DNA of 63,616 nt, counting the filler, from Octopus bimaculoides (taxonomy: Eukaryota): the NCBI RefSeq assembly GCF_001194135.2. It is 4 parts of 4 records of this genome, joined end to end, with 100 filler letters (N's around TTAATTAATTAA, not from the genome) between each part and the next. Parts side by side here need not be neighbours in the genome. Positions count along the whole stretch, not along the records: positions 1 to 18,874 come from NC_068982.1; positions 18,975 to 30,369 come from NC_068984.1; positions 30,470 to 62,375 come from NC_068991.1; 1 more part is not named here. One strand, 5' to 3'. The first letter of the stretch is position 1, and each line of letters starts with the position of its first letter. The position numbers and the translations under genes are program-made. Of the stretch, positions 3,557 to 37,374 are shown piece by piece. Below the pieces are notes generated by a model. The model worked only from the letters and a program-made list of their open reading frames with translations, searched no databases and was not told where the DNA came from.

Positions 3557-3602
3557 GACACCTGATGAAGGGTGGAGGGTATATCAGCCGAAACGTTGTG
3601 TT
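3557..3602 (+). ncRNA. Minimal type-I hammerhead ribozyme motif (PLE terminus)
   Basis: Stem I GACAC/GTGTT; core CTGATGA; extra A; stem II GGGTG/CAGCC with one mismatch; GAA; palindromic stem III ACGT; GUU triplet. Confidence 0.75.
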
Positions 3603-3916
3603 AACAACAAACAAGATGAGGACAAATATCAGTCAATTGTAAATAATGTAGATCTACCTCTGCAGAAACCATTCGTAACGGCGGTTATAGCACAATATAT
3701 GCTAGCACTATTAACCTAACCCAGTGTTCCTCAACCTTTTTACCCTTACGTATCCTTAAAATAGATTACATGCCTCAAGGAACCCCTGCATAAAAAAAAA
3801 CATATATACTATATCTCTCTCCAGTTCTTTTCATCATAGTTTACGTGGTAAATATCATATATATACATACATACATACATACATAGATATATATATATAT
3901 ATATATNNNNNNNNNN

Positions 3917-3950
<34 letters not shown>

Positions 3951-3964
3951 GTGTGTGTGAAGCT

Positions 3965-4992
3965 TTGGGTTATCGGCCTGCTGTGTAGAGTGTGTCTTGT
4001 GTTTAGACAACAGCTAAAGCAAGATATCCTCGCCAAAATACAAAGAATCCGCAGGTATGAGAAACGTCAACGTTTCTTAAAAAAAAAAAACAATGCAATT
4101 CCAATCCCCAAATTTTCTACTAAGAACTTGACAAAAAATGAATTAGAGATCAATGCAGCACCAAGAGCAGAAGTGGAAGAATTCTGGAAAGAAATATGGT
4201 CACCGAAGAAATAACCTGAGTAAAGATCTATCAAAACAACGAACACAGCACTTGATCAACTCTGGACCTCAATAACAACTGAAGAGGTCACCCAGGCACT
4301 GCAAAAGCTAAGTGACTTGAAGGCACCCGGGAACGGCAAGATCCATAACTTCTGGTTAAAATACCTAACATAAACACATAAACAGCTACTGAGAAATTTA
4401 ATGAAATACTAGAAGAATGACTCACGAAAGGGAAAACTAAAATAATTCCCAAATCCACTGAAATGGCAAACCCACAAAATTACAGACCGATAACTGGTCT
4501 CCCTACAATTTACAAAACATTTACTGCAATAACATCACAGAGAATGAGCAAACATCTGGAAGAAAACAGTCTGTTTTTAGAAGAGCAGAAGGGATGCTGC
4601 AAGGGTTCATACGGCAAGGGTTCAGCTACTGATCAATAAAGCCATAACTGAAGACAGCCGCAGAAATAAGAAGGGTCTAAGTATGGCCTGGATCGATTAC
4701 CGAAAGGCTTTTGATAGCATTTTCCACACAAAACACTAGCCATGAACAAGATAGCACCAATAATCATAAAATTAAAAAAAATTCTATGAATAAATGGAAG
4801 ACAGTGCTACAAGCACCAGACAAAGCAAGAGACTCATAAAAAACCAAAGCCATCCCCATTAGAAGAGGAACATTCCAGGGAGACACGCACTCTCCACTCG
4901 TATTCTGCTTGGCACTGATACCTTTATCTGACATGCTAAACAGAACTGGATGTGAATACAACTGTTACGGCAAAACAATCAGCCACCTCTTA
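3965..4992 (+). mobile_element. R4/Dong-like (RLE-class) LINE reverse transcriptase fragment, decayed
   Basis: Motifs APGNGKIHNFWLK, PQNYRPITGLPTIYK, EQKGC, MAWIDYRKAFDS and RRGTFQGDTHSPLVFCLAL, broken by frameshifts. Confidence 0.85.
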
Positions 4993-5480
4993 TATTGGCA
5001 TCCTTTTTATCTCGGGGGACAATGGAGTTGTGCATAAAATAATCTGGTCCGGTTTTTGCATTTCATGTCCTAATACCTCTCCTGCTGTGACTGTGTAGTC
5101 CTATCGTGGACAAACACTCCCTCTGGAAGGTGCCGCAAATGTAGCGAAGACTTTGCCTGGCTGGTTGTGATGTCATAGTTTCTTGCTGACGTCTTTTCTT
5201 GTCTTTCCGTTTCTCCTCTCTCCCTCTGTCACTCCTTTGTGTTCCCTCTTTCATGGTGCGTCGCCAATTCCACGGTTGCTGGTTACCGCTTCCCAGTTGC
5301 TAATATTGATGTCGCAGGCCTTCATGTCCCTTTTGCAAACATCCTCGTATCGTAAGAACGGTCTTCCAACAGACCTAGTGCCCCTAGCAAGCTCTCCGTA
5401 GATTATGTCCTTGGAGATTCTGCCAGCTTCCATACGACTAACATGTCCAAGCCATCTCATACCCCTTTGTATACGCATGT
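4993..5480 (-). mobile_element. RTE-clade LINE 3' end
   Basis: MRWLGHVSRMEAGRISKDIIYGELARGTRSVGRPFLRYEDVCKRDMK and a C-terminal ..CLSTIGLHSHSRR, followed by a short 3' UTR. Confidence 0.85.
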
Positions 5481-5519
5481 ATAGTAATATTACGATCATG
5501 AAATTAGCATTAGCTTATC

Positions 5520-5600
5520 TCACTCTTTCTCACGGAACCCCTAGGAGCCTTTTGCAGAACCCTAGGGTTCCGAGGAACTCCGCTAGAGAAACGCTGCTCT
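5520..5600. mobile_element. Terminal fragment of a MITE-like DNA element
   Basis: Palindromic GAACCCTAGGGTTC core followed by a ..GAGAAACGCTG terminus-like sequence. Confidence 0.4.
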
Positions 5601-6191
5601 AACCCTACTCAAGAATATCGCAAAGTTGAAAACCTCTGACATACTATAAATACTTGAGCCATACAAACTCTGGTCATATTTCTATTATTGTGATCACTCA
5701 TTAATAATATTGTCAAAACTCAACATAAAAAGCTCTGGGCAGCCACAATATTTTCCTATGTTTAAAAAAATTATTTCCGAGGAGCTCCACAACTCAGGAA
5801 CACCCAGATTAGATTCTTACTGAAATAGCTGAGATAGAGGTTATATCATACACAAGGTAACTCATATTATTTGGTTGTTTGAGTGTTTGGGTATTTGGGT
5901 GTTTGGTTGGCTGGCTGGCTGGTTTGTTGATTGGTTTATTGGTCGGCTGGTGGAATGGTGGGCTGATTGCGACTTAACCACATCAGTTGATCACTGAAAC
6001 CTTTTGTCAACACTTGACCTCTTCCACACCCTCAATTGTTTCTACCTATCTTAACGAACAAGCTATGTAACTAAACGGTGTGCTGAGATTGTTCTTGCCG
6101 TCTCTGCGGAGTTACATACATCCCTAACCTTTTCACAAACGTCATCATCGAAGCTTATCTTCTGGAAGTAGGGGCCCAGAAGAACTCTTAC

Positions 6192-6249
6192 CTAATTTCC
6201 TACGAGGTTCATTGGAGATAAATTCGAAGTGAACATCAACTTCACCCAC
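6192..6249 (-). CDS. Candidate 58-nt coding exon VGEVDVHFEFISNEPRRKL(G)
   Basis: Acceptor cctttttag| and donor |gtaagag; open in phase 0. Protein not recognised. Confidence 0.35.
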
Positions 6250-6511
6250 CTAAAAAGGTTTGCATATTGTTATAAGCAGTAAAATAGATGGGCAGACCTC
6301 CCTCCCCCACTCTCTCTCTTACACACACACACACACATCCAGACATGACTGGTTAAGATGTTCATTTCACAAACACGCGGCTTCGCTTCTGTCTTATTGC
6401 GATGCATCTTGAGTAAATGTATTCTACTATAGCCCCGGAATAATTAACGCCTTGTGGTTGAATTTGTTAGAGGAAAACTGCGTGGAATCCTGTCGCTTGT
6501 ATGTATGCATG

Positions 6512-35330: not shown

Positions 35331-35391
<61 letters not shown>

Positions 35392-35417
35392 NNNNNNNNN
35401 NNNNNNNNNNNNNNNNN

Positions 35418-35464
<47 letters not shown>

Positions 35465-35471
<7 letters not shown>

Positions 35472-35660
35472 ATTGAAATTTACAGAAAAACAAAAGACGA
35501 AGACAGGTGTATGAACAACAAGCACATGTATTAGTTTGACTCTCGGGAAAGTGGAAAAGTCTCTTAGGTTTTGAGCCTACGCTCTTCAACAGAAAGCAAT
35601 AAGAGAAAATAAACAGAGAGAGAATTTTTAAAAAAATGTGGATTTAGCGGTCATGCATAC
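35465..35660 (-). mobile_element. Element 'X' copy with a degenerate hammerhead-like fold at 35560-35597
   Basis: GCTTT-CTGTTGA-A-GAGC(GTAG)GCTC-AAA-ACCT-A-AGAGA; the 3' end runs into (TA)n. Confidence 0.7.
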
Positions 35661-36217
35661 ATATAAAATACTGTATAATAATATGGAGTTTATTTATAAA
35701 CCAGGAGATGATATTTCTCTCCCGGCATAAATGTCTGTTAAGCAAGTCCTTCACACGTAAATTGGCAATAATTAGCAAGCGTATATTCGCCTTAATTAAC
35801 CTCAAAATTAGACATACTACTTGATTAGGAAAATTGATGTCCAGTTCTTCAATTATAAACTGATTTCACAGTCTTAAAATAAACACCCCCCAGGTTCGAC
35901 TGAATCGATTTGTTAAACGTTCATTCGTCTCTAAATACCTTTTCCTGAAAGCTGTGAACTTCTAGAAGCAATTGACAACTTCATATTTTATATGTGTGTG
36001 TGTCTGTGTTAGGGGGAGTGTGTGATGATACTATTCAGCATGAATCTGCACCTTGTTTTAGGCTGATTTTGTGAGATAATTATTGGCGAAATAATTTTCC
36101 CTGTAGCCAACCACTCACACCACATTACATTACAAACACCAGTTCAGAGATAGAAAAGAGTAAGTCCATATAGCATAGTACAAAATACACTTTCTCACAA
36201 AACGGCCTAAAATAGAG

Positions 36218-36262
<45 letters not shown>

Positions 36263-37015
36263 CATGTATATTTATATATACATACACAAACACACACACG
36301 CACTTACACACACGCACACACCCACCATACACATGTATATCTATGTACACATATATATGCGCATATACATAGACAAACACAGACACGCATTCACACACGC
36401 ATGCACCCAGATACACACGTACACACGCCCACACACCCATCACACATGTGTATATCCATATACACAGACGCATATACATACACAAACACATACACGCATT
36501 CACACAGGCATGCACACACACACACCAACCGCACACGTGCACACACACACCACACACATCTATATATGTATACACACGCACAAACACATACACGCACTGA
36601 CCCACCACACACATGTATATCAATCTACACATACACATAAGCATACACAACACATACACGCATTCACACACGCAAGCACATAGATGCAGAGACACACGCG
36701 CACGCATATTCTTTTACCCTTTAGTCTTTTACTTATTTCAGTCATTTNNNNNNNNNNNNNNNNNNNNNNNNNNNNNNNNNNNNNNNNNNNNNNNNNNNNN
36801 NNNNNNNNNNNNNNNNNNNNNNNNNNNNNNNNNNNNNNNNNNNNNNNNNNNNNNNNNNNNNNNNNNNNNNNNNNNNNNNNNNNNNNNNNNNNNNNNNNNN
36901 NNNNNNNNNNNNNNNNNNNNNNNNNNNNNNNNNNNNNNNNNNNNNNNNNNNNNNNNNNNNNNNNNNNNNNNNNNNNNNNNNNNNNNNNNNNNNNNNNNNN
37001 NNNNNNNNNNNNNNN

Positions 37016-37217
37016 TAAGCACATGAAACGTGCAACAAGGTGGAAAAAAGAGTACTCAAATACCAGATGTAGAGTAATATGCTTTATTTAAAAGCAGCAG
37101 AAATATAACAAAAACACCGTTACTCTGAGTTTCACGTTCCCGTTCATTCCGATGAACGGGAACGTGAAACTCAGAGTAACGGTTTTTTTGTTATATTTCT
37201 GCTGGTTTTAAATAAAG
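37016..37217. mobile_element. Head-to-head pair of element 'Y' copies forming a 66-bp palindrome
   Basis: Arms 37082-37147 and 37152-37217, loop TCCG, 2 mismatches. Confidence 0.9.
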
Positions 37218-37319
37218 TATATATATATATATATAAACGCGTAAGTAGACAAACGAAGGAAGGGCACACACCCAATTCATCAGGAGTTACATATATGGAT
37301 CAAAAACAGTTTGACTCAA

Positions 37320-37374
37320 ATTCGTTGGTACTCCTGAGTTTCAAGCGTGATGCTAGTCGTCAGCCATTTCGAAT
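37320..37374 (-). ncRNA. Type-I hammerhead motif with a canonical core
   Basis: ATTCG-AAA-TGG-CTGACGA-CT-AGC(ATCAC)GCT-T-GAA-ACTC-AG-GAGT-A-CCA-A-CGAAT; GUA triplet. Confidence 0.7.

What the first reader, a model, noticed from the sequence alone, without database searches (positions are those of the whole stretch)
3557..37374. Unusually dense set of minimal hammerhead ribozymes in at least five unrelated repeat families
Seen: type-I hammerhead folds at 3557(+), 8164(-), 9753(+), 10975(+), 15132(+), 19057(-), 29699(+), 35560(-), 37149(+) and 37320(-), plus remnants. The best copies have CUGANGA-like core, stem II, GAA, palindromic stem III (ACGT, ACAGCTGT, ACTC-N-GAGT), a GUH triplet and a closing stem I. 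Established: Penelope-like elements carry minimal type-I hammerheads in their pseudo-LTRs, and palindromic stem III versions cleave as dimers. Inference: this genome has a diverse ribozyme-bearing retroelement system, including short non-coding members (X, Y) that may be mobilised by PLE RT/GIY-YIG or processed to small circular RNAs in the manner of retrozymes.
Basis: partly seen in the sequence, partly recalled or inferred. Interest (0 to 1): 0.75.

Follow-up and report, generated by a model that had tools for sequence, protein, structure and literature searches.

The report
Penelope retrotransposon ends carrying hammerhead ribozymes
The listed motifs are the broken-off ends of five families of a known animal jumping gene (Penelope-like elements) whose end repeats carry a predicted self-cutting RNA, so the set is mostly ordinary, although the commonest family has a changed catalytic letter in 96% of matching copies and another family's end repeat begins with a tRNA-like head that likely acts as a promoter.

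Summary
Nine of the ten listed sites belong to five real hammerhead-bearing repeat families; 29699 is a deletion remnant. All five families join upstream to Penelope-type GIY-YIG (one also RT) coding remnants, so they are 5'-truncated ends of protein-coding Penelope-like elements (PLEs), not separate non-coding elements. This is the known pLTR minimal hammerhead. Most window copies are damaged; two pairs are single fold-back insertions; the sites lie on three chromosomes. The window is about 4-10 times richer than fixed-position genome samples, partly by ascertainment. Three extras: family C (Neptune-type, at least 5,802 exact copies, many identical) has U instead of the conserved A6 in 96% of copies; family A's end repeat starts with a tRNA-like head at which many copies begin; and an unlisted site (13044-13119, minus) is a fossil 345-nt non-coding tandem retrozyme. 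One RNA-seq run shows reads running through both tested cleavage sites with no pile-up of ends. Cleavage is untested. The scan has noted the same system on other DNA. New members of a known kind.

The parts
2400..3367 (+). Family A PLE: broken C-terminal RT/thumb region and GIY-YIG endonuclease (Penelope/Poseidon-type, clade label recalled)
   Evidence: same coding region upstream of the family-A hammerhead in L237, L241, L242
3401..3503 (+). Family A end repeat: tRNA-like head with A-box- and B-box-like motifs (read by eye), followed by (AAT)n; many genomic copies begin here
   Evidence: not detected as tRNA by ARAGORN or Rfam (copy L242)
3557..3603 (+). Family A minimal type-I hammerhead, canonical core, predicted cut after 3598; element ends near 3650
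   Evidence: 2,778 exact genome matches
8105..10530 (-). Family B PLE 3' part: endonuclease remnant plus about 2 kb of 3' UTR ending in (TA)n
8164..8211 (-). Family B hammerhead, canonical core, 7-bp stem II in the family, palindromic stem III
   Evidence: 95 exact genome matches of a 35-mer
10175..10429 (-). Family B GIY-YIG C-terminal remnant
   Evidence: tblastn E 4e-7 in L245 (the window's own copy) and 4e-10 in L264
10532..11021 (+). Inverted 5' copy of the same family-B insertion, with its hammerhead (10975-11021) cut by an N gap
   Evidence: self-BLAST 8166-8642 against 11020-10532, 90%
9690..9880 (+). Family C (Neptune-type) 3' end, young copy, inserted in the microsatellite of family B's UTR; hammerhead 9753-9789 with U6, predicted cut after 9784
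19037..19108 (-). Family C older copy, U6, stem III broken
35539..35612 (-). Family C older copy, G12 lost
14081..14398 (+). Family D GIY-YIG C-terminal remnant
15129..15174 (+). Family D hammerhead (C4 in the family; private G8 change here); element ends near 15275 in (TA)n
   Evidence: 894 exact genome matches
37016..37215 (.). Second family-D insertion as a fold-back: forward hammerhead from 37149(+), inverted arm 37147-37095 lacking the start of the core
37230..37385 (-). Family F PLE 3' end, hammerhead about 37326-37366, sharing a (TA)n tract with the family-D copy
   Evidence: 17 exact genome matches
29700..29740 (+). Decayed remnant of an old repeat; about 37 nt deleted; not a credible ribozyme
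12880..13310 (-).

Best explanation
The sites are 3' end repeats (pLTRs) of five protein-coding Penelope-like retrotransposon families, each carrying a minimal type-I hammerhead that is predicted to cut only as a dimer or with protein help, and the window copies are likely inert 5'-truncated insertions. Shown: family membership, linkage to GIY-YIG/RT remnants, fixed 3' ends, fold-back 5' ends, insertion at (TA)n for B, C, D and F. Inferred mechanism: the element's protein nicks AT-rich DNA and starts reverse transcription at a fixed site about 50-105 nt downstream of the hammerhead cut site on an RNA that is uncut there (or re-closed as a circle), so every copy, however short, contains the hammerhead; early termination gives thousands of short copies that then decay. 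Family C has spread with U6 fixed, which suggests that fast self-cleavage is not needed for its transposition. In family A a tRNA-like head at the start of the pLTR likely sets the RNA 5' end, giving many 250-290 nt SINE-like copies. Family G is a fossil non-coding retrozyme likely moved by PLE protein in trans.
For: Coding linkage: A 4 of 30, F 3 of 30, B 2 of 30, C 7 of 30 and D 10 of 30 (counts for A, B and D include the window's own copy); C fragment hits Pfam GIY-YIG at E 0.006 and L424 shows a CxxxxCxxC linker before the endonuclease, the Neptune/Nematis feature named in PMC8557442 (passages). Fixed distance from cut site to 3' end: C 95-98 nt in 24 of 30 loci, B 68-77 in 13 of 29, D 104-108 in 6 of 29, F 87-88 in 7 of 29, A about 50 in 25 of 29, with optional 30-50 nt tails in some A, B and D copies. 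In the anole PLE the cut site is at +26 and reverse transcription starts at +111 to +118, hammerhead mutants insert normally and cleavage needs the protein (PMC11167929, parts 1-2 of 4 read). Palindromic stem III in all families, as described in PMC4209133 (parts 1-2 of 4). U6 5,802 against 231 for any other base. RNA reads of run X24 cross the predicted cut sites of C and A without a drop or pile-up.
Against: No full-length ORF was recovered (assembly gaps), and three of four protein fragments had no Pfam hit; the fourth is below the gathering score. Linkage for B and F rests on few loci and weak tblastn scores (E 4e-6 to 9e-5 for F). Cleavage was not tested. Within-family covariation could not be shown; for G the covariation term is only -0.93 kcal/mol and 8 of 27 pairs have any double change. 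The RNA run is unstranded in effect and randomly fragmented, so it can hardly show cleavage ends. The tRNA origin of the family-A head is not confirmed by ARAGORN or Rfam.
Confidence: 0.9

Rival explanations
1. Several listed families are independent short non-coding retrozyme-like elements processed to circular RNA.
For: Most copies are short and non-coding; retrozymes exist in a mollusc (350-390 bp mussel repeats, PMC7229834 passages); family G in this window is such an element.
Against: A, B, C, D and F all extend colinearly into endonuclease remnants; B and C have ragged 5' ends over 0.9-1.5 kb; head-to-tail short tandems were not the rule in the fetched loci.
Confidence: 0.07
2. The pile-up of family-A 5' ends at the tRNA-like head comes from reverse transcriptase stalling or folding back at a small hairpin there, not from a Pol III start.
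For: A short palindrome overlaps the start of the head, and fold-back junctions are frequent there; about a quarter to a third of head-bearing copies still carry the upstream sequence (1,092 against 3,704); RNA depth falls only about 2-2.5-fold across the boundary and no RNA 5' pile-up is seen.
Against: The boundary coincides with the 5' end of a tRNA-shaped sequence with A- and B-box-like motifs; copies pass through the whole tRNA-like fold before ending; 12 of 28 unbiased copies end within 3399-3418 and only 1 of 28 reaches the ORF.
Confidence: 0.35
3. The U6 hammerhead of family C is still a working, conditional ribozyme (dimer-, protein- or metal-dependent) that matters for the element.
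For: Stems I-III and the other core positions are kept across young and older subfamilies; natural A6C variants keep low activity and prefer Mn2+ (PMC3088659, PMC7151607, passages).
Against: Changes at position 6 strongly lower activity in Mg2+ (same papers); hammerhead mutants do not impair insertion of the anole PLE in vitro (PMC11167929); the fold may be kept as a protein-binding or priming signal.
Confidence: 0.4
4. The motifs are chance matches in AT-rich repeat DNA.
For: True for 29699 as it stands, and for stray descriptor hits such as 51068(-) and 6413(-).
Against: 0 hits in 20 window shuffles; 6,078 against 8 genome-wide; five unrelated stem sequences around the same core at the same place in the element.
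Confidence: 0.02

Closest known systems
Minimal type-I hammerheads in pLTRs of metazoan Penelope-like elements (Cervera and de la Pena 2014, PMC4209133, parts 1-2 of 4 read; Lunse et al. 2017 not held, seen only as cited in PMC6765202)
   Same: Type-I fold, unpaired base after A9, short stem I, palindromic stem III, several unrelated families per genome, thousands of mostly solitary truncated copies, opposite-strand pairs within 100-700 bp.
   Different: Family C has U6 fixed and family D has C4 fixed; an A6U natural hammerhead was not found in my searches (one search gave A6C only).
Poseidon element PAc of the green anole (Frangieh et al. 2024, PMC11167929, parts 1-2 of 4 read)
   Same: Fixed 3' ends some 50-105 nt downstream of the cut site, optional tail, AT-rich targets, no RNA ends at the cut site.
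   Different: No tRNA-like head is described for PAc in the parts read; here the ORF start relative to the hammerhead could not be placed.
Non-LTR retrozymes of animals (PMC7229834 passages; bioRxiv 10.64898/2026.07.22.740005 part 1 of 5 and passages)
   Same: Family G: 345-nt unit, 41% GC, canonical-shape type-I hammerhead with internal loop in stem I, no ORF, strongly self-complementary, tandem.
   Different: U3-A8 core instead of C3-G8; arrays are only 1-2 units with PLE-style inverted 5' copies; old and probably silent; no circular RNA shown.
Schistosome SINE-like elements with Pol III promoter and hammerhead (as reviewed in PMC6765202, section 11 read)
   Same: Pol III-type promoter sequence and a hammerhead in one short repeat.
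   Different: In family A the head is part of the end repeat of a protein-coding PLE, and the short copies are solitary or fold-back pairs rather than tandem arrays.

Membership tests
Penelope-like elements (EN+) | ORF with RT followed by C-terminal GIY-YIG endonuclease | tested here: met
   RT and EN remnants for A and C (L435, L424); EN remnants for B, D, F. No intact full-length ORF seen.
Penelope-like elements (EN+) | Hammerhead in the 3' end repeat | tested here: met
Penelope-like elements (EN+) | 5' truncation, inverted 5' copies, optional 30-40 nt tail | tested here: met
Penelope-like elements (EN+) | pLTR-ORF-pLTR partial tandem | tested here: inconclusive
   Loci of 3 kb and N gaps did not hold a full element; some D copies run on past the usual end.
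Neptune clade (family C) | CX2-5CxxC linker before GIY-YIG and (TA)n targeting | tested here: met
   L424 translation; insertions at (TA)n. No tree was built; the feature is shared with Nematis (PMC8557442 passages), the Neptune label rests on recalled motifs.
Minimal type-I hammerhead | Conserved core C3-U4-G5-A6-N7-G8-A9, G12-A13-A14, A15.1-U16.1, H17 | tested here: met
   Families A, B, F; G has the known U3-A8 covariant, A8 in 54 of 54 matches.
Minimal type-I hammerhead | Conserved core in families C and D | tested here: not met
   C: U6 in 5,802 of 6,033 matches. D: C4 in 97 of the first 100 listed of 894 matches; U4C is a known viroid variant (PMC3088659 passage).
Minimal type-I hammerhead | Palindromic short stem III allowing dimer folding | tested here: met
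   Alignments; dimer energies were not computed.
Minimal type-I hammerhead | Self-cleavage at the NUH site | not testable with these tools
   RNA-seq run X24 shows no end pile-up but is not suited to detect it.
Non-LTR retrozyme (family G) | Non-coding unit of about 200-400 nt, GC under 45%, type-I hammerhead, tandem | tested here: met
   345 nt, 40.6% GC, longest ATG ORF 62 aa, two hammerheads head to tail in L099/L279; no PLE protein hit in 29 of 30 loci, the exception being the window's neighbouring family-D remnant.
Non-LTR retrozyme (family G) | Accumulation as circular RNA | not tested
Non-LTR retrozyme (families A-D, F) | No coding partner in cis; short tandem unit | tested here: not met
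tRNA-derived SINE (short family-A copies) | tRNA-derived head with A and B boxes | tested here: inconclusive
   Boxes, D arm and anticodon-type loop seen by eye; ARAGORN and Rfam negative; no tally of boxes was made.
tRNA-derived SINE (short family-A copies) | Copies begin at the head | tested here: met
   12 of 28 within 3399-3418, 18 of 28 within 3374-3418, 1 of 28 into the ORF; 3,704 exact head matches against 1,092 (one mismatch allowed) 25 nt upstream.
tRNA-derived SINE (short family-A copies) | Independent of an autonomous element; Pol III transcript | tested here: inconclusive
   The same head lies in ORF-bearing copies (window, L237, L242, L331), so these may be solo end repeats; transcription not shown.

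The most novel reading that the evidence does not exclude
This genome holds two natural experiments on how Penelope elements work: its most successful family has spread to thousands of near-identical copies with a catalytically crippled (U6) hammerhead kept as an RNA fold for protein binding or priming, and a Poseidon-type family has captured a tRNA-derived Pol III promoter into its end repeat, turning that repeat into a hammerhead-bearing SINE moved by Penelope protein.
Probability: 0.35. Interest if true: 0.6.

Novelty: new member of a known kind. Interest (0 to 1): 0.33.

Why it matters
The presence of many minimal hammerheads in PLE end repeats is established, so the listed observation adds species coverage only. 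What the hammerhead does for endonuclease-positive PLEs is still called unclear (PMC8557442 passage). A young family with U6 fixed, beside sister families with a canonical core, makes that question directly testable. A tRNA-like head inside a pLTR would show a route from PLE to SINE, and the fossil retrozyme with PLE-style insertion marks supports mobilisation of retrozymes by PLE protein.

Tried and rejected
Rfam finds none of the ten listed sites among the 150 of 161 matches shown, only the unlisted 13044-13119 site below the gathering score. One search was mis-aimed at a flank and returned an unrelated abundant repeat; not used. One search timed out and was replaced. Site 29699 rejected as a ribozyme. 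Descriptor hits at 51068(-), 6413(-), 40652(+), 52522(-), 34284(-), 31630(-) were not followed and are taken as chance. No RNA holder on record was listed for family C; the raw-read run X24 of the same species label was laid on families C and A (about 6 in 100 of the run read) and showed both orientations about equally, no pile-up of ends and no convincing back-joints; this says little on cleavage. A search for a younger, G8-bearing version of family G found none (0 of 54). ARAGORN and Rfam did not recognise the tRNA-like head. Lunse et al. 2017 could not be read, so its variant list may already include U6 or C4 cores; supplements of the cited papers and Repbase/Dfam were not seen. Literature searches that did not show a report of these features. 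Not computed: a tally of A/B boxes and monomer-versus-dimer folding energies; no phylogenetic tree of the PLE proteins.
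Full report
Setting. The window joins four stretches of a 2.34-Gb animal genome with 145,327 contigs; I take it to be an octopus from size and repeat content, which no tool states. The listed sites lie on contigs C2 (window 1-18874), C4 (the 29699 site) and C11 (the 37-kb sites).

Observation. Self-BLAST and descriptors sort the ten sites into family A (3557), B (8164 and 10975), C (9753, 19057, 35560), D (15132, 37149), F (37320) and a lone site E (29699). Only 3557, 8164 and 9753 are near-complete folds; the others carry core or stem damage, a gap or a fold-back. 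E has two distant relatives in the genome, and both show that the window copy lost about 37 nt, so its present fold is an accident of deletion. Exact family patterns give C 5,802, A 2,778, D 894, B 95 and F 17 matches, controls 0; these are lower bounds that favour young families.

Density. Profiles built from genomic copies find 11 hits in 57,260 non-N window bases and 10 in 521,107 bases of 60 fixed-position stretches. The families were picked from this window, which inflates the contrast. A family-blind descriptor gives 3 against 6, about 4.6-fold. Two window pairs are single fold-back insertions, the C copy at 9690-9880 sits inside B's microsatellite, and D and F share one (TA)n tract at about 37220, so nesting at a preferred target explains part of the clustering.

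What the families are. Family A lies just behind a broken RT and GIY-YIG region in the window, and 4 of 30 loci show the same. Family C copies are 99-100% identical over 168 nt (40 scored of 333 candidates), end at one position followed by (TA)n and start at many; walking upstream leads through a pyrimidine-rich UTR to a GIY-YIG remnant, and 7 of 30 loci fetched by that remnant hold the C hammerhead downstream on the same strand, most others being blocked by gaps. Family D does so in 10 of 30, F in 3 of 30, B in 2 of 30, one being the window copy at 10175-10429. Inverted 5' copies and optional tails, both PLE marks in PMC8557442 (passages), are present.

How it most likely works. The distance from predicted cut site to element end is fixed per family, about 50 to 105 nt (6 to 25 loci per family matched the anchors). 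This fits the anole PLE, where reverse transcription starts internally about 85-90 nt downstream of the cut site, uncut RNA is the main template, hammerhead mutants insert normally and cleavage needs the protein (PMC11167929, parts 1-2). A circular template, as proposed in PMC4209133, would give the same DNA pattern and is not excluded. Either way every truncated copy keeps the hammerhead, which then decays. Reads of one RNA-seq run cross the C and A sites without a dip or pile-up; the library cannot show cleavage ends well, so this is weak.

Departure 1: core variants. Family C has U at position 6 in 5,802 of 6,033 matches, and most of the rest have C; young and older subfamilies share it. 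Position-6 changes lower activity sharply in Mg2+, and natural A6C variants prefer Mn2+ (PMC3088659, PMC7151607, passages). A whole-word search found no hammerhead A6U report, but the main variant survey could not be read. Family D has C4 (97 of 100 listed), a variant known from a viroid.

Departure 2: tRNA-like head in family A. About 35 nt behind the ORF stop the end repeat has a tRNA-shaped stretch with A- and B-box-like motifs, then (AAT)n, then the hammerhead. It is present in ORF-bearing copies, so it belongs to the autonomous element. Of 28 mapped copies among the first 30 pattern hits on C1 (two were other families), 12 begin within 3399-3418, six more within 3374-3388, mostly fold-back junctions at the head, nine further downstream and one in the ORF. 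Genome-wide the first 22 nt of the head occur 3,704 times exactly, the 22 nt just upstream 1,092 times with one mismatch allowed. The simplest reading is a transcription start at the head, giving solo end repeats or a SINE; a hairpin stall is a live rival, tRNA finders were negative and RNA showed no start. Two earlier notes of this scan on other DNA describe the same feature; they are not independent support.

Family G. Its copies are 74-82% identical to the window copy, form 1-2 units of 345 nt, often with inverted 5' copies (5 of 30 with a detectable inverted hammerhead) and (TA)n ends, and have no coding partner. The monomer is 40.6% GC, has no ORF over 62 aa and folds as a circle with z -6.8 against 60 shuffles; stem I continues through an internal loop into a long closing helix, though covariation is weak. 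The core has A8 in 54 of 54 matches, mostly with U3. It meets the sequence criteria of an animal non-LTR retrozyme (PMC7229834 passages), looks extinct, and its PLE-style insertion marks agree with the proposal that retrozymes ride on PLEs (bioRxiv 10.64898/2026.07.22.740005).

Verdict. Observation partly confirmed, interpretation partly supported. The system is the known PLE pLTR hammerhead, with new families and two departures worth a bench test. Interest 0.33.

Noticed in passing
   Followed up: yes
window 3401-3503 (+): tRNA-like head plus (AAT)n inside the family-A end repeat; many genomic copies start there.
   Followed up: partly
L334, L345 (centres) and L361, L388, L404, L406, L414: Further hammerhead-like families with canonical or U3-A8 cores exist in the genome; L345 resembles family C but keeps A6.
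   Followed up: no
window about 4000-5000 (+) and 29830-30330 (+): Decayed coding remnants that look like non-LTR retrotransposon (LINE) pieces; labels recalled, not tested.
   Followed up: no
window 41215-42030 (+): Mariner-like transposase remnant interrupted by an N gap; label recalled.
   Followed up: no
window 15310-15532, 25393-25615, 26525-26745; and 19584-19892, 44747-45042, 55221-55547, 59954-60269: Two abundant SINE-like repeat families recur in the window.
   Followed up: no
window 23612-24020 and 62915-63577: Open frames resembling retrotransposon endonuclease/RT remnants.
   Followed up: no
L213:about 1500-1600, L214:about 1500-1590: Undeleted relatives of the 29699 site look like an old hammerhead family with a long stem II.
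   Followed up: partly
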